Source of the DNA: Propionibacteriaceae bacterium
Lineage (GTDB): Bacteria; Actinomycetota; Actinomycetes; Propionibacteriales; Propionibacteriaceae
Assembly: GCA_035634295.1 (NCBI GenBank)
Contig: DASQDG010000038.1
Location: 17,209 to 81,208, forward strand
DNA: 64,000 bases
Direction of reading: 5' to 3'
Part shown: positions 1-27,364 of the stretch, piece after piece
Numbering within the stretch: the first letter of the stretch is position 1
Layout: each line of letters begins with the position of its first letter
Notes under the pieces: generated by a model
What the model was told of the DNA's origin: nothing
What the model saw: the letters and a program-made list of their open reading frames with translations, nothing else
Database searches by the model: none
Made by a program: the position numbers and the translations under genes

Positions 1-715
1 CGTCGAGGCCGATCTCGCCGGCGACTTCGCGCACCCGGACCAGGTCCTCGGCCGGTCCCAGGTGTGGCCCGCCGAGCTCATGCACGCTGGTCAGCCCTGA
101 GCTCGCGGCCACTCCCAAGGCCGCTCTCGCCGCCGAGCGTCGCTCCTCGTCGGTGAACAGCGAGGCCACCTGGGTGCGGCACCGGTGGTGCGCCTCCTGA
201 CTCACCCAGCCCGCCTCCGTGAAGCCTGCCTGCTGCTCGATCCCCGGCAGCTGCTCAAGCAGTGACGTCGACACCACGGCCGAGTGCACGTCGACCCGCG
301 CCAGATAGACCGCGACTCCTCCCCCGGCCCGGTCCAGCTCAGCCCGCTCCGGCCGCCGCTGCTCGACCCACTGCCCTTCGTCCCAGCCCTGCCCGAAGAT
401 CACTCCAGCCTCCGGATGCTGCCGCGCGTATTCCGCCACCCGGTCGAGCACCTCCACCCGACTCCGGGCCCTCGCCAAATCCAGCCCCGCCATCACCTGC
501 CCGGTCTGCACCAGATGCGCATGCGCATCCACGAACCCCGGCGTCACCAACCGCCGACCGAGATCCACCACCCGCGCCCCGGCCCCCTCCCAAGCGCAAG
601 CCCCGTCATCCCCGCCGACATAGACGATCACCCCGTCGCGCACAACCAAGGCGGTCGCCACCCCAGACCCACCCAGCAGCAGACGACCGTTCTTCCAGAC
701 GTGGAGGCCGGTCAC
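1..715 (-). CDS. Amidohydrolase family 3 (YtcJ-like) protein, 3' end runs off window
   Basis: Manual translation from GTG at 715: ...VVDLGRRLVTPGFVDAHAHLVQTG...IFGQGWDE...YLARVDVHSAVV; PGFVDxHxH metal-binding motif. Not in ORF track because the stop lies outside the window. Confidence 0.85.
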   Translation of the reverse strand, partial: MTGLHVWKNGRLLLGGSGVATALVVRDGVIVYVGGDDGACAWEGAGARVVDLGRRLVTPGFVDAHAHLVQTGQVMAGLDLARARSRVEVLDRVAEYARQHPEAGVIFGQGWDEGQWVEQRRPERAELDRAGGGVAVYLARVDVHSAVVSTSLLEQLPGIEQQAGFTEAGWVSQEAHHRCRTQVASLFTDEERRSAARAALGVAASSGLTSVHELGGPHLGPAEDLVRVREVAGEIGLD

Positions 716-745
716 AGGAGTGAGGGCGCGACGCCCGCCAGGCAG

Positions 746-888
746 GGTGGACAGGGGGGTGCAGGTTGTGCGCGGGAGCGTGGACGGGCCTGGCGGGAGC
801 CCGTCACGCGGAGCAACACACTGCCGGCGGCAGCCCTACAACGGGCGGATGGCTGCGACCGCGCACAACCTGCACCCCGCTGCCCACC
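746..888. repeat. Structured intergenic palindromic element, family 1, copy A
   Basis: 19-bp perfect inverted repeat 756-774/860-878. Internal 28-bp core (776-803) identical and 17-bp core (843-859) one mismatch to reverse complement of the element at 41238-41355. Confidence 0.85.
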
Positions 889-914
889 AGCCAGCCGAAG
901 CGGCCCGCTCGAGA

Positions 915-1352
915 TCACACCTGGGGCCGGTTCTCGTACGGCACGGAAAGCACTGTCGTCGTGTGCGTCGACACTTTGCCCGCGGCGCGAATCCGGCTGA
1001 GCAGCGACTCCAGGTGCGTCATCGTCGGCACCTGCACCTTGAGCAGTTAGCTCGGCTCCCCCGCCACGGAGTAGCAGGAGATGATCTCCTCGAGGTGCTC
1101 GAGCCGCTCGGGCGCGTCGTCGGCCTGGCTTGGGTCGAAGGGCTTGATGGCCACGAACGCGGTCACCATCAGCCCCACCTCGGCGGCGTCCAGGCACGCG
1201 TGGTAGCCCCTGATGACGCCTCGCTGCTCCAGCCGGCGGACTCTCTGCTGGGCCGCCGACGTCGACAAGCCGGTTTCCTTGCCGATGTCGGTGTAGGACA
1301 TCCGACCGTCTCTCGCCAACAGGGCGAGAATGCGCCGGTCGAGCTTCTCCAT
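915..1352 (-). pseudogene. Lrp/AsnC family transcriptional regulator interrupted by in-frame TAA (1047-1049)
   Basis: N-terminal HTH (LDRRILALLARDGRMSYTDIGKETGLSTSAAQQRVRRLE). After the stop the frame continues LLKVQVPTMTHLESLLSRIRAAGKVSTHTTTVLSVPYENRPQV* to TGA at 915-917, a typical AsnC C-terminus. Real pseudogene or sequencing error. Confidence 0.8.
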
Positions 1353-1377
1353 GGCGCCATCGTGCCAGTATTCGCCT

Positions 1378-2349
1378 GTGGAGTCCCCTCGCCTGCTGCT
1401 TCTGGATACCGCTTCGCTCTATTTCCGGGCCTTCTTCGGAGTGCCCGACTCGCTCCGGGCGCCCGACGGCACGCCGGTCAACGCGGTCCGCGGACTGCTC
1501 GACTTCATCGCCACCTTGGTGACCAGCTATTCCCCCACCCATCTGGCCTGCTGCTGGGACAACGACTGGCGGCCGGCCTGGCGGGTGGAGCTGATCCCCA
1601 GCTACAAGGCGCATCGGGTGGCCTCGGAGAGTGACTCGGTGGTCAGCGAGATGGCTTCCACCCCCAGCACGGCGGGCGAGACCGCGCCCGACGACCTGGC
1701 CGTCCAGGTGCCCCTTATCCTGCAGGTGCTCGACGCGCTCGGCCTGGCTGTCGTCGGCCGAGACGGCTATGAAGCCGACGACGTCATCGGCACCCTGGCC
1801 AGCACCGCACCGATGCCCACCGACGTGGTCACCGGCGACCGGGACCTGTTCCAGCTGGTCGACGACAAGCGGCAGGTCCGCGTCCTCTACATCGCCCGCG
1901 GGGTGGGCAAGCACGAGCAGGTGGACGAGGCCTGGATACGGGCGAAGTACGGCGTCGCCGCCTCCTCCTACGTGGACTACGCCACCCTGCGCGGGGACGC
2001 CTCCGACGGGCTGCCCGGGGTGGCCGGCATTGGGGAGAAGACGGCCGCCGCCCTGCTGGAGCGCCATGGCGACCTGCACTCGATCCTGAGCGAGGCCAGC
2101 CGTCCGCAGTCGGTCATCAGCAGCTCCGTTCGGTCCAAGCTGGGCGCCGCCATCGACTACCTCGCGGTCGCGCCCACGGTGGTCTCGGTGGTCCGCGACC
2201 TCGACCTCGGGGTGAGCTTCGAGGACCTCCGGCTACCGCGAACGCCTCGAAAGCCCGAACAGTACGCCGAGCTCAGCGACCGCCTAGGCCTCAGCGGCAG
2301 CGGCCGGCGTGTGGTGGCCAGCCTCGCCGGTGTCCAGAGCGCTGGCTGA
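1378..2349 (+). CDS. 5'-3' exonuclease / flap endonuclease (PolI N-terminal-like, Rv2090-type)
   Basis: LLLDTASLYFRAFFG, GYEADDVIGTLA, VVTGDRDLFQLV, LRGDASDGLPGVAGIGEKTA. Start GTG 1378 preceded by CAGTAT -10-like box 6 nt upstream. Confidence 0.9.
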   Translation: MESPRLLLLDTASLYFRAFFGVPDSLRAPDGTPVNAVRGLLDFIATLVTSYSPTHLACCWDNDWRPAWRVELIPSYKAHRVASESDSVVSEMASTPSTAGETAPDDLAVQVPLILQVLDALGLAVVGRDGYEADDVIGTLASTAPMPTDVVTGDRDLFQLVDDKRQVRVLYIARGVGKHEQVDEAWIRAKYGVAASSYVDYATLRGDASDGLPGVAGIGEKTAAALLERHGDLHSILSEASRPQSVISSSVRSKLGAAIDYLAVAPTVVSVVRDLDLGVSFEDLRLPRTPRKPEQYAELSDRLGLSGSGRRVVASLAGVQSAG

Positions 2350-5300
2350 GCGACGCTCTCCGGCGTCGATCACCTCACGGGCGGCGTTCAGGAAGCCGTC
2401 GGCGTAGTGGTCGGGCGGGAAGTCGCCGAGATAGTAGATCTTGGTCTGCCGTCGTACCTGGGCCAGCGGGTCGCGCTGCAGCAGGTCATCGTAGACCTGA
2501 TCGAGGTTGCTGAGGTCTTGGCGAAGCAGATAGCCGGCCTTGGCTGCCGGTGCCTCCTCCAGCAGCTGCTCGGGGGTGCGCCCCACCGACACGATGGCGA
2601 ACGGCTTCTCGGAGTGCAGGTAGTCCGAAACCACCGCCGACACATCGGAGATCATTGCGTCCGAGGCGTTGAAACAGTCCTCGATGGTCATCTGCTGTTC
2701 CGCAGCCGGGCCCCACAGATGCTCGCGTCCGGTGGCGGCCTTGTCGGCGGCCAACAACCGCCCGATTGCGGCGATCATGTCCACGCACACGCTGAAGCGG
2801 TAGTTGAAGGGGTGCGCCCGGAAGATCACCCGGACGCCACGGGCGAGCAGCTCCTGCACGATCTGTCGCCCCAGAGGCAACGAGTAAACCCGGGTGTCGG
2901 CGAACGGTCCCTGCCAGGTCGGCGCGTAGAGCACCGTGGGCTGGGGCTGAGCGCTGGGTGGGCCGATCGCGGGCCGGACAGCCTCCACCTGAGGGCGACC
3001 GACGATCTGGAACTTCTCCCGCGGGATCTCGATGCCGTGCCGGTGGTAGCGGTCGATGCCGGCTTGACCGGCGGTGAACAGCAGGTCATAGATGGCGTGC
3101 ACCGGGTTATAGCAGGCGGGCTTCTCGGAGTCGCCGTGATTGAGCCAGACGTGTGTCAGCTCGCGGCGCTCGACGAAGTGGGTGTTGCGGACGGCGTTGT
3201 TGACGTAGAAGGCCGTGGTCAGCGACGGCGGGATGACGTCCTCGAGGCTGCGCAGGGTGGGCCGGTGAATGACCGGCACTTCGACTTCGGAAGCTGCGGT
3301 CACGGCGGCGATCTCGCGCATCATGGCCACGCTGCGGGTGACGATGATGAACGGGCGCCCGATCCGCATGAAGAACGGCAGCCACATGCCCACCTGGTAG
3401 GCCGCGCCCACGGTGGACGCGAAGTAGACGGCGAACTGAGGGGCATACTCCTGCAGGGCGCCCCGCAGTCGCCCTTCGGCCTTGAGCGCCCGGCTGGCTC
3501 GGAGGAGCGCGGTCACCAGGGTGTCGAGGAACAGTGCAAGAACGACCAGGGCCAGCAGCAGCAGCACCCATCCCGGAGGCGGCACCAGCGCCAGCGCGGC
3601 CGCCAGCAGGCTCACCAGAAAACCGACCAGCGTGCTGACGCCACGAGGAATCCGCTCGGTGACCTGCGCGCCGACCAGCGGGAAGTCCCGTACGAGCAGG
3701 CCAAGACCTCCCCAGGCCGACCTGATGTGCGCCTCTCCTGAAGTGGAGACGGCAAGCAGCACCAGCGCCAGGACCGCCGTGGGAGTCAGGCCCCCACGGT
3801 CGGCAAGCAGCACGCCGGTCACCACCAGCACCACGGCCCGGGTCGCGGGCGCCTGGTTGAGCAGCCCACCCCAGCGGTACGGATCGCTGAGGCTGGTGCC
3901 CGCCGACAGGATCCCGGCAACCCCGGCCAGGACGCAGAGCAGCAGCGTCAGCAACCCGGGCGCATCCAGCAAAGCAGCCGCCAGCGCGACCAAGGCCAGG
4001 CCGGTGCTGGACAGGTTGAGACCGATGCCGCCAAGCAGCCGCCGGTAGCCGGACCACCCCACGGCCCGGGATCCGCCGTTCGGCTCTTCCTCGCCCTCGC
4101 CCTCGTCGTCGGTTTCGTCGTCGTCCTCGGCGGTCTTGCTGGTGACCTGTCGGACGGCGTCAACGAAAGCGTTCGCATAGCCTTCGGCCTCGAAGTCACC
4201 GAGATAGTCGACCCGGATGGCGGCGCGGCGGGTGGCGAGCGGGTCGGGCCCGAGCATCTCCTCCAGTTGAGCATCGAGGTCGGACAGGTCGCCGTCCACC
4301 ACGTAGGCGGCCTGCGCCACCGGATATTCCTCCACGAAGGACTCCGGTGCCGACGGCACCGCAATCATGGCGAACGGCTTAAGGGAGAACAGGTAGTCCG
4401 AAACCACCGCGGACACGTCGGACACCATTGCGTCGGAGGCGTTGATGCAGTCCAGCAGGCCCCGCTCGGACTCCGCGGCGCTGCCCCACAGATGCACCCG
4501 CCCCGTGGTCTGGGCGTCGGCGGCCAGCAGCGCCTGGATGCGGCCGATGGTGGCGGCGTCGTCGGGGAAGTCGTAGTTGAAGGGGTGTGGCCGGAAGATC
4601 ACCGTGGAGCCGCGCTCCAGCAGCGCGCGCACGATCCGCTCCCCCACCGGCAGGGAATACAGCAGGGTCTCCTCCACGTGGCCGCGCCAGGTCGGGGCGT
4701 AGAGCACGACGGGCTGCACGACCTCGGAGATGGAGCGGACGGTGGGCACCACGTCCTCCACCTGCGGCCGGCCGACGACTTGAAACTTGTCGGCGGCGAT
4801 CCGGACGCCGTGGGCGGCGTAGCGTCGGGTGGCCGCCGGCCCCGCAGCGAAGATCCGGTCGTACATCGCGTGCGTCGGGTTGTAGGAGGGCGGCTTGTCG
4901 GAGTCGCCGTGCCCTAGGTAGATGTGGGTCAGGTGCTGGTAGCGGACGAAGACCCCGTTGCCGGAGGAGGCGTTGACGTAGAAGGCGGCCTTGAGCGACG
5001 GCGGCACCAGCGCGTCGAGGTCGGAGATCTTGCGGGCCTCCACCACCGGTACGTCGGTCAGCTCGGCCAGGGCCCGGGCCGGGGTGGAGTTGCGGGTGAT
5101 GACGAGAAACCTTCGGCCGGCTCGTTGAAGGTAGGGCAGCCACATGGTGACCTGATAGGACGCGTCGTCGGGACGCGAGGTGTAGATGACGAACTCGGGG
5201 GCATAGTCGGCGACCGCTTGGGGCACCACGGTCCGCAGCCGGCGAGCGGTGAGGATCTTGCGACGCCCGCGGACGGCCACCAGAAATGGCAGCACCAGGG

Positions 5301-5868
5301 CCAGGGCGGCAGCCAGCGCCCACCACCACGAACTGAGGCCTAGCAACGCCACCGCGACTCCCGCTGAGGTGCTGACCAGACTGGCCGCCACCACCCAACC
5401 TCGCAGGTCACGCGTGCGGGTGACGGTCGGCACCCCCGGCAGGTGCGCCACGACCGGCGGCTGGAAGCGCGCGGCTCGGCGCAGGAACGGCTCCCCCACC
5501 ACGCCCGCGGTGAGCAGAGCGACCGCCAGCGCGGCGCCGAGAACCTGGGCGGGGGCGGCGTTGAAGCCGATCAGGACGCCGAGGCCGGCCACGGTCAGGG
5601 TGCGCGCGACGATGGCTGCGCCCAGGACGCCGCGGCGCTGGACTCTGACCCGAAGCAGCAGCCTCAGCGACAGGCCCAGCACGCAGGCGGACAGCAGCGC
5701 GGTGGCCAGGGCGCTCGAGCTGCCGCCCGGGCGCAGCAGCGACGGTGACGGCGAGCTCAGTGCGCCGACCATGGCCGCCACCACGATCAGGGTGTCCAGA
5801 GCGAGGTTGACGTAGCGCTGCCGCTGTTGCGGGTTTCCGCTCACCTCCGGAGTCGTGATCGCGGTCAT
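2284..5868 (-). CDS. Membrane protein with two tandem CDP-polyol phosphotransferase (TagF/TagB-like) modules
   Basis: Two repeats of a multi-TM segment plus catalytic domain: GHGDSDK/NHGDSEK, VGRPQVE, VLYAPTW, IFRPHPF/IFRAHPF, SDAMxSDVSAVVSDYL. Start 5868 chosen from ATGA overlap with the upstream acyltransferase stop. Confidence 0.8.
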   Translation of the reverse strand: MTAITTPEVSGNPQQRQRYVNLALDTLIVVAAMVGALSSPSPSLLRPGGSSSALATALLSACVLGLSLRLLLRVRVQRRGVLGAAIVARTLTVAGLGVLIGFNAAPAQVLGAALAVALLTAGVVGEPFLRRAARFQPPVVAHLPGVPTVTRTRDLRGWVVAASLVSTSAGVAVALLGLSSWWWALAAALALVLPFLVAVRGRRKILTARRLRTVVPQAVADYAPEFVIYTSRPDDASYQVTMWLPYLQRAGRRFLVITRNSTPARALAELTDVPVVEARKISDLDALVPPSLKAAFYVNASSGNGVFVRYQHLTHIYLGHGDSDKPPSYNPTHAMYDRIFAAGPAATRRYAAHGVRIAADKFQVVGRPQVEDVVPTVRSISEVVQPVVLYAPTWRGHVEETLLYSLPVGERIVRALLERGSTVIFRPHPFNYDFPDDAATIGRIQALLAADAQTTGRVHLWGSAAESERGLLDCINASDAMVSDVSAVVSDYLFSLKPFAMIAVPSAPESFVEEYPVAQAAYVVDGDLSDLDAQLEEMLGPDPLATRRAAIRVDYLGDFEAEGYANAFVDAVRQVTSKTAEDDDETDDEGEGEEEPNGGSRAVGWSGYRRLLGGIGLNLSSTGLALVALAAALLDAPGLLTLLLCVLAGVAGILSAGTSLSDPYRWGGLLNQAPATRAVVLVVTGVLLADRGGLTPTAVLALVLLAVSTSGEAHIRSAWGGLGLLVRDFPLVGAQVTERIPRGVSTLVGFLVSLLAAALALVPPPGWVLLLLALVVLALFLDTLVTALLRASRALKAEGRLRGALQEYAPQFAVYFASTVGAAYQVGMWLPFFMRIGRPFIIVTRSVAMMREIAAVTAASEVEVPVIHRPTLRSLEDVIPPSLTTAFYVNNAVRNTHFVERRELTHVWLNHGDSEKPACYNPVHAIYDLLFTAGQAGIDRYHRHGIEIPREKFQIVGRPQVEAVRPAIGPPSAQPQPTVLYAPTWQGPFADTRVYSLPLGRQIVQELLARGVRVIFRAHPFNYRFSVCVDMIAAIGRLLAADKAATGREHLWGPAAEQQMTIEDCFNASDAMISDVSAVVSDYLHSEKPFAIVSVGRTPEQLLEEAPAAKAGYLLRQDLSNLDQVYDDLLQRDPLAQVRRQTKIYYLGDFPPDHYADGFLNAAREVIDAGERRSASALDTGEAGHHTPAAAAEA

Positions 5869-6926
5869 GGCCGCTCGGGAGAGCGTCGGAACAGCCATCC
5901 CACTGACGGTTCGACCAGGACTCGAAACGTGGCCGACACCACTGACGTCGACAGCACGGCCGTGAGCAGGAGAGCGCCCAGCACCAGGGCGAGCAAGACC
6001 ACGGGCGACTTGACGTCGTCGAGGTAGCCGGCCTGCAGCAAGAAGTAGATCGGCAGCAGGTGCAGCATGTAGACGTACATGGTCGCCCGGCCCCAACCGG
6101 TGACCGAAGTCGTCGAGGCCGAGGTCACCGACACGATGGCGACCACCAGCAGCAGGGCGATCCCGATCAGGAGAAGCCGGGTTCCGCCCGCGGCCCAGCC
6201 CTGCACGCCGATGGTGGCGTAGTTCTTCTCCACCTGGACCCACTCCCGCAGGTGATGCTCGCGAGCGAACGAGACGCCGAGCACGCAGCAGACCAAGGCG
6301 ACCAGGAGCACGCCCAGCGAAGTCGCACGGACCCAACCCCGCCGAAGGAACGGCAGTACCGAGGCCAATGACGGGCGTGACCGCATCGCCCAGCCGGCCA
6401 CGAAGAAGGGCAGCATGCCCAACACCCGGCTGGCGTCGAAGAGCCAGCCGATGGCGAAGTATCCGCTGATGCAGGCCACCGCGACCGCGACCACGACCGG
6501 CAGCTGCAGGTTTGCCATCAGCGGCAGGGCCAGTCGCCAGGCGGCCAGCGCGGGCAGGAACCACAGGTGCCAGTAGGGCGAGGTGAGGTCGAAGGTGAGC
6601 TTGCCCTCCTGCCACCAGCGGATCAGGGCCCAGAGCACGCTGAAGATCACGTACGGGGCCAACAGCTGGCTGATGATCCTCTGACCGTCGGCACCGGTGA
6701 TCGGCTCGGCCCGGGCGAAGTATCCGGAGATGAAGGCGAACAGCGGCATATGGAACGCATAGACGAACAGGTAGAGCGCGTACGCCAGGTCATAGCGCGA
6801 AGCCGACTCGATCGTGTGCCCTACGACCACCAGGGAGATGGCCAACAGCCGGAGGTTGTCCCACAGCGGATCGCGACTGCGGACCGCGCCGGTCGACGCG
6901 GCGGCGCTGGGAGTCGCGATCACCAT
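5865..6926 (-). CDS. Acyltransferase family 3 (OafA-like O-acyltransferase), multi-TM
   Basis: RDPLWDNLRLLAISLVVVGH, YAFHMPLFAFISGYF, WHLWFLPAL, GRATMYVYMLH; about 10 hydrophobic helices. Confidence 0.85.
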   Translation of the reverse strand: MVIATPSAAASTGAVRSRDPLWDNLRLLAISLVVVGHTIESASRYDLAYALYLFVYAFHMPLFAFISGYFARAEPITGADGQRIISQLLAPYVIFSVLWALIRWWQEGKLTFDLTSPYWHLWFLPALAAWRLALPLMANLQLPVVVAVAVACISGYFAIGWLFDASRVLGMLPFFVAGWAMRSRPSLASVLPFLRRGWVRATSLGVLLVALVCCVLGVSFAREHHLREWVQVEKNYATIGVQGWAAGGTRLLLIGIALLLVVAIVSVTSASTTSVTGWGRATMYVYMLHLLPIYFLLQAGYLDDVKSPVVLLALVLGALLLTAVLSTSVVSATFRVLVEPSVGWLFRRSPERP

Positions 6927-9900
6927 TCCGATGCAGGCGCGTCGCCGCGAGGAACGAAGACCGCATCCACCAGGCGTTCGGCGGCGCGGCCGTCCTCGAG
7001 GGGGAGGTAGTCGCTCCGGAACCGCCGATACTGCTCGGCGTATTCGGCCCGGACCTGATCCAGCTGCGACAGTGCCTCGATGATCTCGTCGGTGGTGTTG
7101 ACGAACGGACCCGGCGCGGTGGGCTCGAAGTCGAAGAGCCAGCCCCGGGTCTCGACGTAGCGCTGCAGGTCGGGCACGTGGAAGATCATCGGCTTGCCCG
7201 TGACCCCGAAGTCGAAGCGCAGCGAGGAGTAGTCCACCAAGGCCGCGTCGGCGGCCAGATAGAGGTCGCTCACCTCGGGATAGTCGGTGACGTCGATCAC
7301 CCCGGGGCGCGGCCGGATGCGCCGGTTCACTCGGGCGTTGAACGCGTGACCGCGGACCAAGACCACATAGTCATCGCCTAGGGCTGCGGTGACGGTGTCG
7401 AGGTCGAGGAAGTCCACCATCTCAGCCCGGTGGTCGTCGGGTGAGAGGTAGTCGCGGTAGGTCGGCGCGTACAACACGACGGTCTGGTCGGGCTTGATGC
7501 CGAACGCGTCGCGGACTCGTCGGCGCAGCTCGTCGGCGTGCGGCGACGACAACACGTCGTTGCGTGGATAGCCGATCTCGAGCACCTCACCGGAATAGCG
7601 GAAATCGCGGGTGAGCAGCGGGGTGGCGTACGGGGCCGGCGAGATGAGGTAGTCCCACTCGGCCGAGCGGCGCGCGTAGGAGTCGATCCGCTGAGTCGAG
7701 AAGCCGGCCCTGATCCAGTTCGGGTAGCCCATGGTCTTGAACGGGTAACCGTGGAAGGTCTGCATCAGCACCTGTCCGGCCGGCTTCACGTGGTAGTCCG
7801 GCTGGTACATGTTGTCCATGTAGTAGGTCACGCTGGACAGCAGCCGATACCACTCGGCGCTGTCCTTGACCACGCCGATACCGCCCTCGGGCACGGGTAC
7901 GGAGTGGTCCCGAATCGCCCAGTAGACCGGCAGGTCGCACCCCCGGCGGGCGAGCTCGGCCTGCAGCCCGACCCCGTTGTCAGTAGCGGACTCGCCAAAG
8001 TAGGACTGCAACAGCACGCCCCGGTGAGTGGCCCGGGCGTCGGCCCGCGGTCGACCGCGCAGCAGGTTCTGCCGGTAGCGCCCGGTGGCCTCGGCTCCCA
8101 ACGGACGGGTCAGCGACAGCTGCAGGTTGCCGCCGGCGCCGCCGCGGACCACCCGAGCGTTCACCAGCTCCGAACCCACCGAGACCGGGACCCGAAGCAG
8201 CAGTTCCGCCGACATCAGCACCGGGAACGGCGCGCTTTCCTCAACCGGGCCCGGCAGACCGGGGACGTCGGCCAGCACCCGGTATTCGCCCGAGCGGAGC
8301 GGCAACGTGCCGAACCGGCCCTCGGTGCGGGCGATCGGCACCGTGGCGTGGAAGCGACTCCCGTCGACCTCGGGCAGCACCCAGTCCGAGCGCCGGGTCG
8401 GATGGACCAGGGCGATCCGAAACGGCGCGGCAACCATGCCCGCGAAATGACCGCGAATCTCCAGGTCGCCGTGCGCGTTTGTGCTCAGCTCGGTGGCCAC
8501 CACCGCGCCTCGACGCTCGGTCACCGTCACCCGCCCGAACCGGGTCCGTTCCAAAGCGATCACCTGGCCCGGCAGCTCGACCGGCCCGGAGTCGCCTCGC
8601 CAGGCCACCGGAACTCTTGTCGTGGTGGTCTTGCCGTTCTCGGCTGTACCGCTGACCAGGGCCCGCACCCGCCAGCGACGAGTGGCGGCCGGACTGTCCA
8701 GCAGCCCCTCGGGCAGCGGCGGCAACGCGAGCGAGACCGGGGCACTGGCGTTCTCGGTCGGTTCGAGGGACGTCCGGGCGACCAGCCGAGCGCTCGAATT
8801 GGTCGCTTCAAATCCCACCACATGGCGAAGGTCGCCGTGCAGCACCCCGATCAGCTGCCGGTCCTGGATGGTGGCCTGGACGAGCTCGACCCCGGCTTCG
8901 TCCAGCCGAAGCCGCAACGGGCGTCGCCACTGCCACAGCAGGACCAGATGCGTGCCGTCGGGGCGTCGGCTGTGCTCCAGAGCCGCGGCAGAGCCACGCT
9001 GGTTGACACGGGTGATCGGCGCGGTCACCGAGAACCCGGCCACGTCAACCCGCAGATCGAGGTCCCAGACGTCTCCGATACTCGCTCCGACCTCGTCGCA
9101 CAGCTCGGCGAAAGGAACGTCGACGGCGAACTGGCCCCCCTCATAAGTCGCCCAAGGGTCGTCGTTGGGAGCGGGGAAGATCGGCACCGGCAGGTGCTGG
9201 TTGGCGAACTCAAAGGATCGACCGGTTCGACGGTGCCGGGCCAGCACCGTCACCTGATTGGTGGTGCCCGCGGGCGCCTCGGCCAGGTTGAGGTAGCGCA
9301 GGTAAGCCCAGCCACTCACTCGCAGTCGGGCATCGTGGGTCCACTCCAGGCCCTGCACCGAATGGGACAGCTCCAGCTGATCGGGGCGCAGCAGGAAGAG
9401 CTGCTTGTCCAGGCCGATCTCGGGATCGTCGAAGTAAGGCAGCTGCAGATAGAGGCCCTCGGGGGCGACCGTGGCCGGCCACTGGTGCAGGCGGTGGCCG
9501 TTGCGCGCGATGAACTCCCGGGCTTCCAGCTGCCGATTGGCGCACGCGAGCGCGATCATCACCCGGCGCATGGGCATGGTGCGGTCCCACACCTGCTGCG
9601 ATGCTGCACCGGCAAGATCAGAAACGGCACTCTGCAGCTCGCACCAGTAGTCGTGGGAGGTGGTGGACGGGCTGTTGAGGTACCAGTGGAAGTGCGCGTC
9701 GAAGAGGGTCTGCAGCCAGGCGTCGTAGATCTCGACCGACACCGTGTCCTGCAGGGCCTCGTGGCTGACCCGCCACGCGGCCACACGGTCCCGCACGTCG
9801 CTCACGGTGCTGGTCTGTTGGCTGATCGAACTGCCGTCGGCCCGGGCCCGATACTCATAGACCACCCGAGCGAGCACGTCGATCTTCCGCGCCCGGGCGT

Positions 9901-10594
9901 AGAGCTGGCTGATGATCGGCTGGTCCTCGTAGGCCACCCCTTCGCGAAAGGTCAGCCCCTGGGCGCGCCAGAACGAGCGTCGGTAGAGCTTGCCCCAGGT
10001 GTAGTTGTTGCGCAGCAGCCGCGGGAAGTCCTCCAGGGTGATGCCCAGCCGGGTCTTGGCGTGCAGCTCGTGCACCCACTCCGGCGTCCAGCGGCGGCTG
10101 CCGGTGAAGCGGACCGCGGCGCCGGCCACGATGTCGGCACCGCTACGGCGAGCCGAGCGCACCATCGGGCCGATGGCACCGAGCGGCAGGGAGTCGTCGG
10201 AGTCGACGAACATTAGGAACGTGCCGCGGGCGTGCTGGACTCCGGTGTTGCGGGCGGCGCCCAGGCCACCGTTGGGGCGCCGCACGATCTTGACTCGGGA
10301 GTCCTTGGCGGCGTAGCGCCTGGCGATCGCGTAGGACCTGTCCGGCGACCCGTCGTCGACGATGATCAGCTCGAAGTTCCGGAATCCCTGCGACAAGATG
10401 CTGTCCAGACACTCCGCCAGATAGGCCTCGACGTTGTAGATGGGCACGATGACGCTGACCGCAGGTCGAGGCTGGCGGGGCTTGGGCGGCCGGGCGGCCG
10501 GCTGCGGTCGGCGCAAGCCTGGCAGCCGACGCAGCTGGCGGCGTACGGGAAGGGGCAGACGTCGACCGAGGGAGCGGACAATACTTCTTCTCAT
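6920..10594 (-). CDS. Bifunctional GT2 glycosyltransferase / TagF-like polyol-phosphate polymerase
   Basis: N-terminal GT2 (VSVIVPIYNVEAYL, IVDDGSPD, FLMFVDSDD); C-terminal TagF-like (QTFHGYPFK, GYPRND, LYAPTYRD, VRGHAF, VDYSSLRFDF). Start could be 10645. Confidence 0.88.
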   Translation of the reverse strand: MRRSIVRSLGRRLPLPVRRQLRRLPGLRRPQPAARPPKPRQPRPAVSVIVPIYNVEAYLAECLDSILSQGFRNFELIIVDDGSPDRSYAIARRYAAKDSRVKIVRRPNGGLGAARNTGVQHARGTFLMFVDSDDSLPLGAIGPMVRSARRSGADIVAGAAVRFTGSRRWTPEWVHELHAKTRLGITLEDFPRLLRNNYTWGKLYRRSFWRAQGLTFREGVAYEDQPIISQLYARARKIDVLARVVYEYRARADGSSISQQTSTVSDVRDRVAAWRVSHEALQDTVSVEIYDAWLQTLFDAHFHWYLNSPSTTSHDYWCELQSAVSDLAGAASQQVWDRTMPMRRVMIALACANRQLEAREFIARNGHRLHQWPATVAPEGLYLQLPYFDDPEIGLDKQLFLLRPDQLELSHSVQGLEWTHDARLRVSGWAYLRYLNLAEAPAGTTNQVTVLARHRRTGRSFEFANQHLPVPIFPAPNDDPWATYEGGQFAVDVPFAELCDEVGASIGDVWDLDLRVDVAGFSVTAPITRVNQRGSAAALEHSRRPDGTHLVLLWQWRRPLRLRLDEAGVELVQATIQDRQLIGVLHGDLRHVVGFEATNSSARLVARTSLEPTENASAPVSLALPPLPEGLLDSPAATRRWRVRALVSGTAENGKTTTTRVPVAWRGDSGPVELPGQVIALERTRFGRVTVTERRGAVVATELSTNAHGDLEIRGHFAGMVAAPFRIALVHPTRRSDWVLPEVDGSRFHATVPIARTEGRFGTLPLRSGEYRVLADVPGLPGPVEESAPFPVLMSAELLLRVPVSVGSELVNARVVRGGAGGNLQLSLTRPLGAEATGRYRQNLLRGRPRADARATHRGVLLQSYFGESATDNGVGLQAELARRGCDLPVYWAIRDHSVPVPEGGIGVVKDSAEWYRLLSSVTYYMDNMYQPDYHVKPAGQVLMQTFHGYPFKTMGYPNWIRAGFSTQRIDSYARRSAEWDYLISPAPYATPLLTRDFRYSGEVLEIGYPRNDVLSSPHADELRRRVRDAFGIKPDQTVVLYAPTYRDYLSPDDHRAEMVDFLDLDTVTAALGDDYVVLVRGHAFNARVNRRIRPRPGVIDVTDYPEVSDLYLAADAALVDYSSLRFDFGVTGKPMIFHVPDLQRYVETRGWLFDFEPTAPGPFVNTTDEIIEALSQLDQVRAEYAEQYRRFRSDYLPLEDGRAAERLVDAVFVPRGDAPASEW

Positions 10595-10767
10595 CTCGAA
10601 CCTCGACGCACGTCTGGTCGCTGTGCCGGGCGGCGGCAGCATCACGGGAGTTTACCGTCCCCGCCTGTCCAGCTCACCCTGCGCCGCGCGCCGTGGTCGC
10701 GCGAGCCGTTTCTGCTCTAATGGGCTAGGTCACCTCAGCCCGCATACCTCGACTGGAGTTCCCCGCC

Positions 10768-16250: not shown

Positions 16251-17660
16251 GTGGCCAAGTTGCGCAACGTCGCCGTGGTGCTCGCGGGCGGCACCGGCAC
16301 CCGGGTGGGCCTCAGCATCCCCAAGCAGCTGATCAAGATCGCCGGCAAGCCGATCATCGAGCACACCATCGCCGCGATGCAGCAGTCACCGGTGATCGAC
16401 GAGATCCTGGTGATGATGGCGCCGGGCTACCTGGACGAGATCCGGGCGATCGTCCGCGGCGGCGCCTACGACAAGGTCACCCAGATCCTCGAGGGCGCCG
16501 GCACCCGGAACGACACCACGTCCGCCGCGCTGGCCGCACTCGGCGGCGAAGACTGCAACGTGTTGCTGCACGACGCGGTCCGGCCGCTGGTCAGCCAGAC
16601 GATCATCGCCGCGAACGTCGCCGCGCTGGAATCGCACGAGGCGGTGGACACCGCCATCGCGTCGGCCGACACGGTGATCAAGGTGACCGCTGAGACCGGC
16701 CTGATGGCCGACGTGCTGCCCCGACACCTGCTGCGACGCGGTCAGACGCCCCAGTCGTTTCGGCTGTCCACCATTCGAGCGGCCTACGCTAAGGCAGCAA
16801 CGGACCCCAACTTCACCGCCACCGACGACTGCACGGTCGTGCTGCGCTACCTGCCCGACGTTCCCATCGCGGTCGTGCCGGGCCACGAGCGCAACATGAA
16901 GGTCACCGAGCCGATCGACGTCTACATCGCCGACAAGCTCTTCCAGCTGACGTCGGCAGACACGCCGGCGGCGCTGTCCGACAACGAATACCGCGCCCGG
17001 CTGACCGGCAAGACGCTGGTGGTTTTCGGCGGTTCGTACGGCATCGGTGGTGACATCGTCGAGCTGGCCCGGACCTACGGCGCCACCGTGCGCACCTTCT
17101 CCCGGTCCTCGACCGGCACCCACGTGGAGCGGCGCGAGGACGTGGTGGCAGCGGCCCGGGCGGTGTTGAACGAGACCGGCCAGATCGACTTCGTGGTGAA
17201 CACCGCAGGCGTGCTGCCGCGGGGCAAGCTGGCCGAGACCAGCGAGGAGACCATCTTCCAGGCCACGGACGTCAACTATCTGGCCCCGATCATCATCGCG
17301 CAGGAGTTCTTCCCCCATTTGAGCCAGACCCGCGGCTCGCTGCTGCTCTTCACCTCGTCGTCCTACACCCGAGGACGGTCCGGCTACTCGCTCTACTCCT
17401 CGGCCAAGGCGGCGGTGGTCAACCTGACGCAGGCGCTCGCCGACGAGTGGGGCCACGCGCACGTCCGGGTCAACTGCATCAACCCCGAACGGACCGCAAC
17501 CCCGATGCGCACCCGTGCCTTCGGCGCGGAGCCGGCCGGCACCTTGCTGACCTCAGAAGAGGTGGCCCGGCAGTCCCTGGACGTGTTGCTGTCCGGCCAG
17601 ACCGGGCACGTGATCGACATTCGTCGCGCAGAAGGACCCGCCGCGCTGGCCGGTGGTTAG
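16251..17660 (+). CDS. Bifunctional IspD/TarI-type cytidylyltransferase + SDR reductase (Bcs1-like CDP-ribitol synthase)
   Basis: N-terminal VLAGGTGTRVG..PKQL, LLHDAVRP, GQTPQSF, NMKVTEPID; C-terminal SDR VVFGGSYGIG, NTAG, YSSAK. TACAGT -10 box 6 nt before GTG. Confidence 0.85.
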   Translation: MAKLRNVAVVLAGGTGTRVGLSIPKQLIKIAGKPIIEHTIAAMQQSPVIDEILVMMAPGYLDEIRAIVRGGAYDKVTQILEGAGTRNDTTSAALAALGGEDCNVLLHDAVRPLVSQTIIAANVAALESHEAVDTAIASADTVIKVTAETGLMADVLPRHLLRRGQTPQSFRLSTIRAAYAKAATDPNFTATDDCTVVLRYLPDVPIAVVPGHERNMKVTEPIDVYIADKLFQLTSADTPAALSDNEYRARLTGKTLVVFGGSYGIGGDIVELARTYGATVRTFSRSSTGTHVERREDVVAAARAVLNETGQIDFVVNTAGVLPRGKLAETSEETIFQATDVNYLAPIIIAQEFFPHLSQTRGSLLLFTSSSYTRGRSGYSLYSSAKAAVVNLTQALADEWGHAHVRVNCINPERTATPMRTRAFGAEPAGTLLTSEEVARQSLDVLLSGQTGHVIDIRRAEGPAALAGG

Positions 17661-22499: not shown

Positions 22500-23600
22500 C
22501 TAGAGGCGCACCTCCCAGCCGGACTCGTTCATCGCGCCCGCGAGCCCCCCGGCCAGCTCGGGGGCGACCGACAAGGAGAGGTAGCCGACCTGGCGCACCT
22601 GGTCGTGCTCGATGGCGATGTCCTCGACGTTGACCCCGGCACGGCCGACGTCGGTGAACAGCCGGGCCAGTGCTCCCGGTGCGTCCGGGATGGCCACTAC
22701 CACCTGGGCATAGGCCACCGGGGCCGCGCCGTGCTTGCCCGGGATCTTGCGGGTGCCGGCCAGCCCGCGGGCGAGCTGGCTGCGCAAGTCCTCGGTCTCC
22801 GGCACGGCCTCAACGGCTTTGATCACCTGGTCCAACGAGTCGGCCACCGCCCGCAGCTCCGACAGCACGGCGGCCGAGTTGGCCCCGACGATCTGCTCCC
22901 ACAGCAGCGGATCGCTTCCGGCCACCCGGGTGACGTCGCGCAGTCCCTGGCCGGCCAGGCGCAGATGCCGCTCCGGCACAGTAGTCAAGTGGCCGGCCAT
23001 CAGCACCGACATCAGGTGTGGCAGGTGCGACACCCGTGCCACCGCGGCGTCGTGGTCGTCGACGTCCATCACCACCGGCACCGCGCCGCAGGCCTCGGCC
23101 AAGCGTTGCACCCGCATCCGCGAGTCCGCTGCCGAACGCCGGTGTGGCGTGATAACCCAGCTGCGGTCCTCGAAGAGGTCGGCCCGCGCGGTCACCGGGC
23201 CGGAGTGCTGGGAACCCGCCATCGGGTGGGAGCCGACATAGCGTTCCAGCGGCAGGGGGCTGTCCCAGAGGGCGTCCAGCACCCCTGCCTTCACCGAGCC
23301 GACGTCGGTCACCGTCGCGGCCGGGTAGTCCTGCAGCGAGCTAGCCACCACCGAGGCGATCGCCCGCGGTGGGACGGCGACGACGACGAGGCCGACCTCG
23401 GCGCGGCGTGGTACATCGGTGGTGCCGGCCCCGAGCGAGGCGGCGACCCGGGCGTGGCTCAGCTTGGCGTCACGCAGGTGCACCATCTGGCCGCGCTCGG
23501 TGAGCGCGCAGCCGATCGAGGCCCCGATCAGGCCCGCCCCGATCACCACCACCGGTGCCGACAACGGGTGGGCGGCCTCCGACGCCTGCGACTCGGTCAC
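22500..23600 (-). CDS. tyrA: Prephenate dehydrogenase with C-terminal ACT domain
   Basis: [50 protein letters not shown]. Confidence 0.93.
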
Positions 23601-24451
23601 CTCGGGGAGTCCTCCGGCGGCGCCTCGCCCGGCGGCGCCTTTCCCTGAGGTGCCGGGGACCCACCCCGCGACAAGTCGGTCTCGCTCAGGGGTGGCTCCG
23701 GGTCCGGCACCCGCGGCGCCTCGGGTCCTTGGTCCTCAGGCTCGACCTGGTCGGTGAGCAGGGCAGCCAGCCGGTCACCGGCGATCCGGCGAAACTTGCG
23801 CGGCAGGGTCCGCGTCCGGTCCAAGATGGCCACCTCGAGCGCCTCCACCCCCAAAGTGCGCGGCTCGACGCCTGCGCCGCCGTCGGCACCGAGGCTGCGA
23901 ACAGCCAGCTGGGCGGCGTCGGCCAGCCGTAGGTCCGGCTGGAAGCCGCGCCGCACCACCTCGGCGATCACGTCGGCCGAGCCGCCCATCACCGCGAAGC
24001 CCTGCTCGTCGCCGACCGAACCGTCATAGGTGAGCCGATAGATCTGGTCGTCCTCACGGGTGGCGCCCAGCTCGGCCACGATGATCTCCACCTCGTACGG
24101 CTTGTCACCGCCGGAGGAGAAGATGGTGCCGAGCAGCTGGGCGTAGGCGTTGGCCAGGCCTCGTCCGGTCACGTCCGTGCGGTCATAGCTGTAGCCCCGC
24201 AGGTCGGCGTAGCGGATGCCCGCCGTACGCAGGTTCTCGAACTCGTTGTAGCGCCCGACTGCGGCGAACCCGATCCGGTCATAGATCTCGCTCACCTTGT
24301 GCAGGGCCTGGGAGCGGTTCTCGGCCACGAACAAGATGCCCTCGGCGTAGTGCATCACGACGACCGAGCGACCTCGGGCGATGCCCTTGCGGGCGAAGTC
24401 CGCCCGGTCCTTCATCTGTTGCTCGGGAGCGACGTAGAACGGCATGCTCAT
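23597..24451 (-). CDS. prcA: 20S proteasome alpha subunit
   Basis: [48 protein letters not shown]; Pro/Glu-rich C-terminal extension. Confidence 0.96.
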
Positions 24452-24490
24452 GCCGCGCACCTCCTGCTGTGCCTCATCGAAAGTTGTGCC

Positions 24491-25360: not shown

Positions 25361-25569
25361 TGGCCGCCCTTCTGCACGAACGAGCGGACGAACTCTTCGG
25401 CGTTGACCTCCAAGACGTCGTCGATCTCGTCCAGCAGCGAGTCGACGTCGGAGTCGATCTCGGCCTTGTGAGCGTCGATCTTGGCCTGGTGATCGGCGTC
25501 AGCGGGCGCCTCGACGTCAGTCTCCTCGGTCCTGCGCGCCTTGCTCCTACTCTGCTCTGACTCAGCCAT
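25357..25569 (-). CDS. pup: Prokaryotic ubiquitin-like protein Pup (Gln-terminal)
   Basis: [26 protein letters not shown]; aaggag RBS. Confidence 0.97.
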
Positions 25570-25622
25570 GCTGCTCCTTCACCGTGGGGTGCACCAAGCC
25601 TAACCACGTCGGCTGACACTAG

Positions 25623-25666
25623 AGCGCACCAGCGCACCAGCGCACCAGCGCACCAGCGCACGAGCG
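25623..25666. repeat. 8-bp tandem repeat (AGCGCACC) x5 plus partial copy
   Basis: Copies at 25623, 25631, 25639, 25647 and 25655 (last is agcgcacg), between the dop stop and the pup promoter. Confidence 0.92.
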
Positions 25667-25682
25667 GCTCAGCGCCGGCGGA

Positions 25683-27266: not shown

Positions 27267-27335
27267 GCCCTTCAGCGTAGTGTGAGGGGCACATGGCCTG
27301 GCCTTTCCGGCGTGCCGGACGGGCTCGCCGCTCCT

Positions 27336-27364
27336 GATGTCCGGTCCGAACGGGCGGCTCCGAC
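27336..27364 (+). promoter_or_regulatory. Candidate ECF42-type promoter for the yciI-sigma operon
   Basis: gaTGTCCG-N17-CGAC upstream of the YciI gene, resembling the TGTCGA / CG(A/T)C motif recalled for ECF42 sigma factors; one mismatch in -35. Confidence 0.45.

What the first reader, a model, noticed from the sequence alone, without database searches (positions are those of the whole stretch)
2284..5868. One polypeptide with two complete membrane + TagF-like modules joined by an acidic linker
Seen: module 1 (about 4140-5868) and module 2 (2284-4080) each have several TM helices and a catalytic domain keeping both His motifs (GHGDSDK..FRPHP; NHGDSEK..FRAHP). They are joined by EDDDETDDEGEGEEE (about 4081-4135) and are clearly diverged (YTSRPDDASYQVTMW vs YFASTVGAAYQVGMW), so this is an old duplication. 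Established: two His are catalytic in TagF-family enzymes. Inference: two sequential polyol-phosphate transfers (primer/linker synthesis or alternating donors) at the membrane.
Basis: partly seen in the sequence, partly recalled or inferred. Interest (0 to 1): 0.68.

Follow-up and report, generated by a model that had tools for sequence, protein, structure and literature searches.

The report
Double membrane-anchored TagF-like polyol-phosphate transferase
One 1194-residue protein really does carry two complete [quoted passage not shown] modules. The layout is conserved and fairly common in high-GC Gram-positive bacteria, so it is an uncharacterised variant of a known enzyme kind, not a one-off oddity.

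Summary
Window 2284-5868 (-) is one uninterrupted 1194-aa ORF with two modules. Each module has a 6-helix membrane domain and a TagF-like GT-B domain, and a disordered acidic linker joins them. Both keep the HGxxxK and (F)RxHP histidine motifs. The whole module was duplicated: the catalytic halves are 48% identical, and the membrane halves match by profile (E 2e-15) and share an invariant Arg and Glu.

The layout is not rare. There are over 120 clusters (90% identity) of about 1150-1290 aa. 68 open frames of at least 1100 aa with the first His motif twice lie in 63 of 75 species-level loci (Propionibacteriaceae, Mumia, Arthrobacter, Brevibacterium). All are labelled only "CDP-glycerol glycerophosphotransferase family protein".

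In trees, M1 and M2 form two separate clades with the same internal branching order. This fits one old fusion of two paralogues. Single-module relatives (about 570 aa) are widespread in Actinomycetota.

A fused IspD+SDR (Bcs1-like CDP-alditol synthase) gene lies within 10 kb in 34 of 49 large loci.

The membrane domain has no Pfam family and no significant PDB fold match. Characterised TagF-like enzymes are monotopic.

Best reading: a covalent pseudo-heterodimer of two cytoplasm-facing alditol-phosphate transferases with divided roles. The division of labour is inferred, not shown. Interest is moderate to low.

The parts
2284..5868 (-). Whole gene, 1194 aa (stop codon at 2284-2286). It is the last gene of an operon: GT2-TagF, then AT3, then this gene.
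   Evidence: The ATG at 5868 overlaps the upstream TGA as ATGA. An identical protein, P0003, is on record.
5203..5835 (-). Module 1 membrane domain, res 12-222. Six TM helices (12-38, 50-77, 86-101, 106-134, 156-176, 180-222), N-in and C-in.
   Evidence: AF2 models (domain alone pLDDT 92.3, pTM 0.86). Hydropathy and positive-inside pattern. No Pfam family. No significant PDB fold match.
5602..5604 (-). Arg89, at the cytoplasmic start of TM3. Nearly invariant in all membrane domains of the family.
5491..5493 (-). Glu126, at the cytoplasmic end of TM4. Nearly invariant. It is followed by the conserved LPG loop (res 143-145, nt 5434-5442).
4138..5202 (-). Module 1 TagF-like GT-B catalytic domain, res 223-577.
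   Evidence: Pfam PF04464 stretch 387-500. Foldseek top hits TagF, TarL, Cps3D, Bcs3. hhalign to the neighbouring canonical TagF domain.
4894..4914 (-). GHGDSDK, the first His motif of module 1. H320 is the counterpart of the catalytic base (TagF H444, TarL H300).
   Evidence: His roles are taken from PMC10901376.
4582..4596 (-). FRPHP, the second His motif of module 1 (H428). It aligns with 'VRGHAF' of the canonical neighbour.
4063..4128 (-). Disordered inter-module linker, res 581-602. It starts with the acidic run EDDDETDDEGEGEEE (nt 4084-4128).
   Evidence: pLDDT below 50 over res 581-602. Most double homologues have an acidic stretch here of similar composition but different sequence.
3445..4062 (-). 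Module 2 membrane domain, res 603-808. Six TM helices (600-633, 638-669, 674-690, 696-718, 742-759, 766-808). It carries R677 (nt 3838-3840) and E712 (nt 3733-3735).
2335..3444 (-). Module 2 TagF-like GT-B catalytic domain, res 809-1178. Contains NHGDSEK (nt 3121-3141, H911) and FRAHP (nt 2809-2823, H1019).
5865..6926 (-). Upstream gene: Acyl_transf_3 membrane O-acyltransferase, translationally coupled to the double gene.
6920..10645 (-). First gene of the operon: GT2 glycosyltransferase fused to a canonical TagF-like domain, 1241 aa.
   Evidence: PF00535 plus PF04464, 282 bits over the full model. Its best NCBIfam match is TarF, below that model's cut-off.
16251..17660 (+). IspD-type cytidylyltransferase fused to an SDR reductase (Bcs1-like CDP-alditol synthase). 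This is the likely donor supply.
   Evidence: An orthologue lies within 10 kb of the double gene in 34 of 49 loci of at least 20 kb. In Mumia and Brevibacterium it is directly upstream.

Best explanation
The gene encodes a genuine single polypeptide made of two paralogous modules. Each module is a polytopic 6-helix membrane domain followed by a cytoplasmic TagF-like GT-B domain.

Most likely both domains are active CDP-alditol:acceptor alditol-phosphate transferases. The donor probably comes from the Bcs1-like IspD+SDR enzyme of the cluster. CDP-ribitol is the default guess, but the alditol is not established.

The two modules would pack as a covalent pseudo-heterodimer in the membrane and act on one lipid-linked wall-glycopolymer intermediate with divided roles. 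One would add the first or limited unit(s) and the other would extend the chain, as the separate pairs TarK/TarL or TarF/TarL do in Firmicutes.

The membrane domains take the place of the amphipathic helices and N-terminal domains of TagF and TarL as the anchor. Their invariant Arg, Glu and LPG loop lie at the cytoplasmic face, where they probably position the polyprenyl-(pyro)phosphate-linked acceptor.

Export of the finished polymer would be by a separate ABC-2 (TagGH-type) transporter.

Shown here: the anatomy, the homology, conservation of the motifs, the topology prediction, the phylogeny and the gene linkage. Inferred: catalytic activity, donor identity, packing of the modules, division of labour, and the role of the membrane domain.
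For: **Family**
- PF04464 matches twice, above its cut-off.
- Fold hits are TagF 3L7K, TarL 8VA1, Cps3D 8QOY and Bcs3 8A0C, E 6e-8 to 1e-5.
- The HGxxxK, YAPTW-R, xRxH and SDAxxxDxS motifs align to the canonical TagF domain next door.

**Both modules look active**
- Across 126 double proteins, H320 is kept in 123, H428 in 126, H911 in 125 and H1019 in 123.
- 86 positions are conserved and identical in both modules across 69 double proteins.

**Specialisation**
- 14 positions are conserved within each module but differ between them. They cluster around the His loop: G319|N910, D324|E915, S328|C919, T332|V923, and the charge swap R309|E900.
- M1 and M2 form separate clades (SH-aLRT 99 and 100) with the same internal branching order across Mumia, Arthrobacter, Brevibacterium and Propionibacteriaceae.

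**Topology**
- Six helices per module, and K/R-rich loops on the same side as the catalytic domains.

**Packing**
- Full-length AF2 gives pTM 0.78 although the linker is disordered. This implies a defined relative placement of the modules (inference).

**Donor**
- The IspD+SDR gene is in the cluster and within 10 kb in 34 of 49 loci.

**Export elsewhere**
- An ABC2_membrane gene lies 2-8 kb from the double gene in Arthrobacter sp. C2 and in Mumia sp..

**Precedent**
- Known TagF-like enzymes work as oligomers on the membrane surface: TarL is a tetramer and TagF a dimer (PMC10901376).
Against: - No biochemical data exist for any member.
- No NCBIfam equivalog model (TarB, TarF, TarK, TarL, TagF) matches the protein.
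- Pfam covers only about a quarter of its model (positions 194-290 of 367) in each module. The family is very divergent.
- Nothing identifies which module would prime and which would extend. The 14 differing positions could instead reflect asymmetric packing.
- The alditol is not established. Brevibacterium has the same IspD+SDR plus double-gene arrangement, and B. iodinum wall teichoic acid is poly(mannitol phosphate) (PMC6801904).
- No WecG/TagA homologue was found in this 95%-complete genome, so the acceptor is not the classical Firmicute linkage unit.
- No ABC-2 permease lies on this contig.
- Model coordinates could not be inspected, so inter-module contacts rest on pTM alone.
Confidence: 0.55

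Rival explanations
1. Structural fusion only. Both modules catalyse the same polymerisation step with the same donor and acceptor. The fusion simply fixes the dimer that TagF-like enzymes need for a stable membrane platform, with no primer/polymerase division.
For: - Both active sites are fully conserved, and 86 positions are shared and invariant between the modules.
- TagF is a dimer and TarL a tetramer (PMC10901376).
- Only one CDP-alditol synthase gene is in the cluster.
- pTM 0.78 suggests a packed pseudo-dimer.
Against: - M1 and M2 have stayed distinct clades across four families, with no homogenisation or module loss.
- 14 fixed differences lie near the catalytic loop, including a charge reversal.
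- Some single-module proteins sit closer to M1 than M2 does. The partners were therefore already different paralogues when they fused.
Confidence: 0.27
2. Synthase-exporter. The twelve TM helices of the two modules form a conduit, and the nascent poly(alditol phosphate) is translocated as it is made, as in cellulose or hyaluronan synthases. No TagGH transporter would be needed.
For: - The membrane domain is polytopic, highly conserved and confidently folded (pLDDT 92), and carries an invariant Arg and Glu.
- It has no known family or fold.
- No ABC-2 permease lies on this 86-kb contig or beside the single-module paralogues in this genome.
Against: - The extracytoplasmic loops are only a few residues long.
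- The conserved Arg, Glu and LPG loop lie at the cytoplasmic face, not along a transmembrane path.
- ABC-2 permease genes lie 2-8 kb from the double gene in Arthrobacter sp. C2 and in Mumia sp..
- This genome has nine ABC2_membrane matches elsewhere.
Confidence: 0.06
3. Not a polyol-phosphate transferase. The TagF-type scaffold is used for another transfer, for example of a ulosonic acid (Kdn or Pse, as in actinobacterial teichulosonic acids) or of another activated group.
For: - The family is very remote from all characterised TagF-like enzymes: no NCBIfam match and only a partial Pfam match.
- Earlier scan notes describe TagF-like scaffolds linked to nonulosonic-acid genes.
Against: - The catalytic His within HGxxxK is retained in both modules.
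- No NeuB-type or CMP-sugar synthetase gene was found in the cluster.
- A CDP-alditol synthase gene is linked instead, in 34 of 49 loci.
Confidence: 0.07
4. Assembly or annotation artefact. There are really two adjacent genes, wrongly joined in this metagenome-derived assembly.
For:
- At least three related loci (L078, L079, L085) show the frame broken into two pieces.
Against: - 68 open frames of at least 1100 aa with the first His motif twice lie in 63 of 75 species-level loci. These include loci from complete isolate chromosomes of Arthrobacter sp. C2 and Brevibacterium sp. GP-SGM9.
- There are more than 120 clusters of about 1150-1290 aa.
- In the broken cases the second frame is too short to hold the whole module-2 membrane domain, so the break lies inside that domain and not at the linker. 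They come from metagenome assemblies, which fits indel errors.
Confidence: 0.02

Closest known systems
S. aureus TarL (PDB 8VA1) and S. epidermidis TagF (PDB 3L7I-3L7M), the CDP-ribitol and CDP-glycerol wall-teichoic-acid polymerases
   Same: - Same GT-B TagF-like fold: Foldseek E 1.5e-6 to 1e-5.
- Same Pfam family, PF04464.
- Same HGxxxK catalytic-base motif and second His motif.
- Acts at the cytoplasmic face of the membrane.
- Works as an oligomer (PMC10901376).
   Different: - TagF and TarL are monotopic, held on the membrane by amphipathic helices, and TarL has an Ig-like N-terminal domain. Here each catalytic domain follows an integral 6-helix domain with no Pfam family or PDB fold match.
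- Here two modules are fused in one chain.
- Sequence similarity is too low for phmmer or a profile to reach any PDB chain.
Primase/polymerase pairs of wall teichoic acid synthesis (B. subtilis W23 TarK + TarL; S. aureus TarF + TarL; TagB + TagF)
   Same: Two paralogous TagF-like enzymes act in sequence on one lipid-linked intermediate. This is the model proposed for M1 and M2.
   Different: - Those pairs are separate soluble or monotopic proteins. Here the two paralogues are covalently joined and membrane-integral.
- Which module would correspond to which role is unknown.
- The pair comparison rests on general knowledge of these pathways and was not tested here.
Multi-domain capsule polymerases Bcs3 (H. 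influenzae b, PDB 8A0C) and Cps3D (A. pleuropneumoniae, PDB 8QOY)
   Same: - Large single chains (about 1000-1100 residues in the solved structures) containing a TagF-like domain. They give the best and the eleventh Foldseek hit.
- Supplied by a Bcs1-type IspD+SDR CDP-ribitol synthase, the same fused layout as the cluster's gene at 16251-17660 (Bcs1 layout from general knowledge).
   Different: - Those enzymes combine different catalytic domains (glycosyltransferase, phosphatase, TagF-like) and have no transmembrane helices.
- The protein here repeats the same module twice.
- The neighbouring GT2-TagF gene (6920-10645) is the closer analogue of that type.
CDP-alcohol phosphotransferases (PIP synthase, PDB 5D92 and 6H53; AF2299, PDB 4Q7C)
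   Same: They are 6-helix membrane proteins that use CDP-alcohols, and they are the top but non-significant fold hits of the membrane domain (E 0.11-4, TM-score 0.34-0.41).
   Different: - The match is below significance.
- Only one Arg, one Glu and one Pro are nearly invariant in the membrane domain. That is too few acidic residues for the Asp-rich signature of that family (signature recalled from general knowledge).
- It is not treated as a member.

Membership tests
TagF-like polyol-phosphate transferases (Pfam PF04464 Glyphos_transf) | Sequence match to the family model above its curated cut-off | tested here: met
   66.9 bits against a cut-off of 22.1, with two stretches, one per module. 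Only model positions 194-290 of 367 are covered. A whole-genome scan finds both stretches again.
TagF-like polyol-phosphate transferases (Pfam PF04464 Glyphos_transf) | GT-B fold closest to solved TagF-like enzymes | tested here: met
   AF2 model pLDDT 83.8. The top Foldseek PDB hits are Cps3D, TagF, TarL and Bcs3, ahead of UDP-GlcNAc 2-epimerases and trehalose-6-phosphate synthases.
TagF-like polyol-phosphate transferases (Pfam PF04464 Glyphos_transf) | Catalytic-base histidine (TagF H444, TarL H300) in the HGxxxK motif | tested here: met
   LGHGDSDK and LNHGDSEK have the same spacing as QTFHGYPFK in the canonical TagF domain next door. H320 is kept in 123 of 126 double proteins and H911 in 125 of 126. 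Equivalence rests on motif spacing and fold, not on a residue-level structural superposition.
TagF-like polyol-phosphate transferases (Pfam PF04464 Glyphos_transf) | Second conserved histidine and the C-terminal-subdomain motifs (YAPT-R, xRxH, DxSS/DVS) | tested here: met
   hhalign aligns VLYAPTWRG with VLYAPTYRD, FRPHPF with VRGHAF, and SDAMVSDVSAVVSDY with ADAALVDYSSLRFDF. H428 is kept in 126 of 126 double proteins and H1019 in 123 of 126.
TagF-like polyol-phosphate transferases (Pfam PF04464 Glyphos_transf) | Transfers polyol phosphate from a CDP-polyol with release of CMP | not testable with these tools
   Only indirect support: linkage to an IspD+SDR CDP-alditol synthase gene in 34 of 49 loci.
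Named teichoic-acid enzymes TarB, TarF, TarK, TarL, TagF (NCBIfam equivalogs) | Match to the equivalog model at its cut-off | tested here: not met
   No NCBIfam family matches at E up to 0.01. The protein should not be named after any of these enzymes.
Monotopic membrane association typical of characterised TagF-like enzymes | Amphipathic in-plane helices and no transmembrane segments | tested here: not met
   Six transmembrane helices per module. The TarL paper describes monotopic helices for TarL and a membrane-binding GT-B domain for all TagF-like enzymes, and the word 'transmembrane' does not occur in it (PMC10901376).
CDP-alcohol phosphotransferase family (for the membrane domain) | Significant fold or sequence match, and the Asp-rich signature motif | tested here: not met
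   Foldseek E at least 0.11 and TM-score at most 0.41. No Pfam hit in 82 membrane domains. Only Arg, Glu and Pro are nearly invariant.

The most novel reading that the evidence does not exclude
The 6-helix domain (invariant Arg at the start of TM3, Glu at the end of TM4, LPG loop) is a new membrane module that defines a large actinobacterial class of integral-membrane TagF-like enzymes. These enzymes would work as obligate heterodimers. The fused protein would then be a 'Rosetta stone' showing that the single-module paralogues pair up: one subunit primes and the other polymerises, with the membrane domains holding the lipid-linked acceptor. In the boldest version the membrane domains also form the export path. 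That would be a mode of teichoic-acid assembly different from the monotopic TagF/TarL paradigm.
Probability: 0.3. Interest if true: 0.6.

Novelty: new variant of a known kind. Interest (0 to 1): 0.38.

Why it matters
All characterised TagF-like teichoic-acid and capsule polymerases are peripheral (monotopic) membrane proteins.

This finding points to a large, uncharacterised actinobacterial branch: about 680 clusters (50% identity) at E below 1e-30. In it the same catalytic domain is welded to a conserved polytopic membrane domain. A sub-branch has two specialised copies fused into one chain.

Actinobacterial wall teichoic acids are chemically diverse (ribitol, mannitol and glycerol phosphates), but their polymerases are essentially unstudied. 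The fusion gives a testable hypothesis for how priming and elongation are coupled, and a tractable target in culturable Arthrobacter, Brevibacterium or Microlunatus.

It does not overturn anything known. It is not unique to this genome, and databases already carry hundreds of generically annotated copies.

Tried and rejected
1. **Longer ORF rejected.** The start at GTG 6615 (1443 aa) was rejected. Its first 249 codons overlap the real Acyl_transf_3 gene in another frame, and ATG 5868 gives the ATGA coupling and the protein on record.
2. **Spurious downstream ORF.** ORF 712-2079 (-), just downstream, is a spurious Arg/Gly/Ala-rich antisense frame. The real gene there is a 5'-3' exonuclease on the + strand at 1330-2349.
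3. **No PDB hit by sequence.** Neither phmmer with the protein nor a profile of alignment A1 found anything relevant. Only fold comparison reached TagF and TarL.
4. **Membrane domain has no match.** Pfam scans of 82 copies gave only scattered noise. Foldseek gave nothing significant, and the weak resemblance to PIP synthases was not accepted.
6. **No model coordinates.** They were not available in the Python box, so inter-module contacts and active-site distances could not be measured.
7. **Literature.** No paper combined 'TagF-like', 'polymerase' and 'transmembrane'. Searches on teichoic acid with Propionibacteriaceae, Arthrobacter or Brevibacterium gave nothing on these enzymes. The umbrella-toxin preprint mentions only a Streptomyces TagF locus.
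8. **Self-export hypothesis weakened.** ABC-2 permease genes lie next to the double gene in two other genera.
9. **Classical linkage unit not supported.** A search for TagA (PF03808) in this genome found nothing.
Full report
**1. Observation**

The minus-strand frame 2284-6615 is open. Its first 249 codons overlap, in another frame, a well-supported Acyl_transf_3 gene at 5865-6926 (PF01757, E 2e-20). The start that fits is ATG 5868, which overlaps that gene's TGA as ATGA. This gives 1194 aa, identical to a protein already on record (P0003).

The acidic run EDDDETDDEGEGEEE is residues 581-595 (nt 4084-4128).

The two halves align at 48% identity over 404 residues, E 1e-123. Pfam PF04464 (Glyphos_transf) matches once in each half, 66.9 bits against a cut-off of 22.1.

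**2. Anatomy**

- *Full-length model.* An AF2 model built on 58 full-length homologues has mean pLDDT 83.8 and pTM 0.78.
- *Modules.* Each module has six long helices followed by a two-Rossmann GT-B domain. The helices are 12-38, 50-77, 86-101, 106-134, 156-176 and 180-222 in M1, and 600-633, 638-669, 674-690, 696-718, 742-759 and 766-808 in M2.
- *Linker.* Residues 581-602 are disordered (pLDDT below 50).
- *Topology.* Family-averaged hydropathy and K/R counts give short outer loops and K/R-rich loops on the side of the N-terminus and the catalytic domain. With six helices per module, both catalytic domains should be cytoplasmic, where CDP-activated donors are.
- *Membrane domains are homologous.* BLASTP did not align them, but they match by profile: hhalign probability 98.5%, E 2.3e-15, 186 columns. 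The whole module was therefore duplicated, not only the enzyme part.
- *Conserved membrane-domain residues.* Across 82 membrane domains from several genera, only three positions are nearly invariant:
  - an Arg at the cytoplasmic start of TM3 (R89/R677);
  - a Glu at the cytoplasmic end of TM4 (E126/E712);
  - a Pro in the following LPG loop.
- *No known family for the membrane domain.* Modelled alone it is very confident (pLDDT 92.3, pTM 0.86). It has no significant match in the PDB: the best hit is a PIP synthase at E 0.11, TM-score 0.34. It has no Pfam family.

**3. Family assignment**

- *Sequence searches.* Searches against PDB sequences fail, and no NCBIfam equivalog (TarB, TarF, TarK, TarL) matches.
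- *Fold.* The closest folds are Cps3D (8QOY), TagF (3L7K), TarL (8VA1) and Bcs3 (8A0C).
- *Motifs.* A profile alignment to the canonical TagF domain of the neighbouring gene lines up YAPTW-R, F-R-x-H and SDAxxSDVS. The first motif has exactly the canonical spacing: QTFHGYPFK against LGHGDSDK and LNHGDSEK.
- *Roles of the histidines.* In TagF and TarL the first His is the catalytic base (H444 and H300), and a second His (TarL H433) also sits in the active site (PMC10901376).
- *Conservation.* Both histidines are kept in both modules in 123-126 of 126 double proteins.
- *Conclusion.* The protein is a member of the TagF-like family, but a very divergent branch. It differs from all characterised members in being polytopic instead of monotopic.

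**4. How common is the double layout?**

- *Protein collection.* The search returned over 120 clusters (90% identity) of about 1150-1290 aa, with 54-78% identity to the query among the rows listed. Those that carry a name are called 'CDP-glycerol glycerophosphotransferase family protein'.
- *Species-level genomes.* The scan gave 75 loci. 68 uninterrupted frames of at least 1100 aa with the first His motif twice lie in 63 of them, and 63 of these frames also carry the second motif twice. The loci come from Propionibacteriaceae MAGs, Microlunatus, Friedmanniella, Mumia, Arthrobacter and Brevibacterium, and include loci from complete isolate chromosomes.
- *This genus.* All six genomes of the window's own genus have it, some with a second double gene next to it.
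- *Tandem arrangements.* Many loci have a further single-module gene or a second double gene directly downstream.
- *Linker.* It is conserved in composition (acidic) but not in sequence.
- *Single-module relatives.* With module 1 as query, the 50%-identity library has 1691 hits, 682 of them below 1e-30. About 20 of the top 150 are doubles. Most of the rest are proteins of about 550-600 aa that include the membrane domain. They come from Micromonospora, Brachybacterium, Salinibacterium, Bifidobacteriaceae and others.
- *Paralogues in this genome.* It also has two single-module paralogues and one shorter one.

**5. Evolution**

- In a FastTree of 118 modules and an IQ-TREE (quick search) of 76, M1 and M2 each form one clade (SH-type support 99-100). 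Both clades show the same internal order: Mumia; Arthrobacter plus Brevibacterium; Propionibacteriaceae.
- Some single-module proteins group with M1 and not with M2 (support 85-95). The layout therefore looks like one old fusion of two already diverged paralogues that have co-evolved ever since. The root is not determined.
- One protein (P0141) is an independent fusion.
- 86 positions are conserved and identical in both modules. 14 are conserved within each module but differ between them, several next to the catalytic loop, including the charge swap R309|E900.

**6. Context**

- *Operon.* The gene is the last of a translationally coupled operon: GT2-TagF fusion (6920-10645), then Acyl_transf_3 (5865-6926), then the double gene.
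- *Cluster.* The cluster of about 17 kb also holds two methyltransferases, a TarS-like GT2, another GT2, an IspD+SDR fusion (16251-17660) and an EEP-family protein.
- *Donor gene.* The IspD+SDR layout is that of the H. influenzae CDP-ribitol synthase Bcs1 (my own knowledge). It scores below all NCBIfam cut-offs.
- *Linkage.* Orthologues of this gene lie within 10 kb of the double gene in 34 of 49 loci of at least 20 kb. In Mumia and Brevibacterium they are directly upstream on the same strand. This is the strongest functional link found. Other cluster genes are poorly conserved next to the double gene.
- *Caution on the alditol.* Brevibacterium iodinum wall teichoic acid is poly(mannitol phosphate) (PMC6801904), so the alditol may differ between lineages.
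- *Export.* No ABC-2 permease lies on this contig. One lies 2-8 kb from the double gene in Arthrobacter sp. C2 and in Mumia sp..
- *Linkage unit.* No TagA/WecG homologue was found in this genome.

**7. Mechanism**

The best-supported reading has four parts:
- two active, cytoplasm-facing alditol-phosphate transferases are held in the membrane by their own 6-helix domains;
- they pack as a covalent pseudo-heterodimer (pTM 0.78 despite a disordered linker);
- they work on one lipid-linked intermediate with divided roles;
- a separate ABC transporter exports the product.

Activity, donor, packing, division of labour and an acceptor-positioning role for the Arg/Glu/LPG face are all inferences.

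The main rival is a purely structural fusion of two enzymes doing the same step. A synthase-exporter role for the membrane domains, and a non-polyol-phosphate chemistry, are not excluded but are disfavoured.

**8. Verdict**

The feature is real and ordinary in the sense that it is conserved and widespread. It is an uncharacterised variant (polytopic and tandem-fused) of the known TagF-like enzyme kind. Literature searches found no description of transmembrane TagF-like enzymes. Interest is moderate to low.

Noticed in passing
window 712-2079 (-) and 1330-2349 (+): The long minus-strand ORF (455 aa, Arg/Gly/Ala-rich, no Pfam hit) is a spurious antisense frame. The real gene is a 5'-3' exonuclease (PF02739 + PF01367) on the + strand. 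It converges on the double gene, and their 3' ends overlap by 66 nt (2284-2349).
   Followed up: partly
window 6920-10645 (-): A 1241-aa fusion of a GT2 glycosyltransferase with a canonical full-length TagF-like domain (PF04464, 282 bits). Its layout recalls the bifunctional glycosyl / polyol-phosphate capsule polymerases. It may be the true backbone polymerase of the cluster.
   Followed up: partly
G000 whole genome: The genome has nine PF04464 matches: four canonical ones (contigs C87, C49, C38, C77) and five of the divergent type studied here. The five are the two in the double gene, two single-module paralogues on C59, and one shorter open frame (398 aa) on C13. No WecG/TagA (PF03808) homologue was found in this 95%-complete genome.
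   Followed up: partly
L034, L036, L046, L050, L081 (related loci): Several relatives (uncultured Actinomycetota MAGs and Microlunatus lacustris) carry two double genes in tandem, which makes four modules in a row. Many others carry a double gene followed directly by a single-module gene of about 520-600 aa.
   Followed up: partly
L051, L052, L056, L059, L070, L084: In Mumia and Brevibacterium the IspD+SDR gene sits immediately upstream of the double gene on the same strand. B. iodinum wall teichoic acid is reported as poly(mannitol phosphate), so this enzyme pair may make and use CDP-mannitol there, not CDP-ribitol.
   Followed up: no
L078, L079, L085: In these metagenome-assembled loci the double frame is broken into two pieces. 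The second piece is too short to hold the whole module-2 membrane domain, so the break lies inside that domain and not at the linker. These are probably indel errors or pseudogenes, not natural split genes.
   Followed up: no
P0141 (1150 aa, from the representatives search): Both modules of this double protein nest within a different group of single-module proteins. The tandem fusion therefore arose at least twice.
   Followed up: partly
window 23597-32904: An ordinary actinobacterial Pup-proteasome block: two proteasome subunits, a Pup-ligase family protein and the Mpa/ARC AAA ATPase. A sigma-70/DUF6596 gene and a PLD-like gene lie in between.
   Followed up: no
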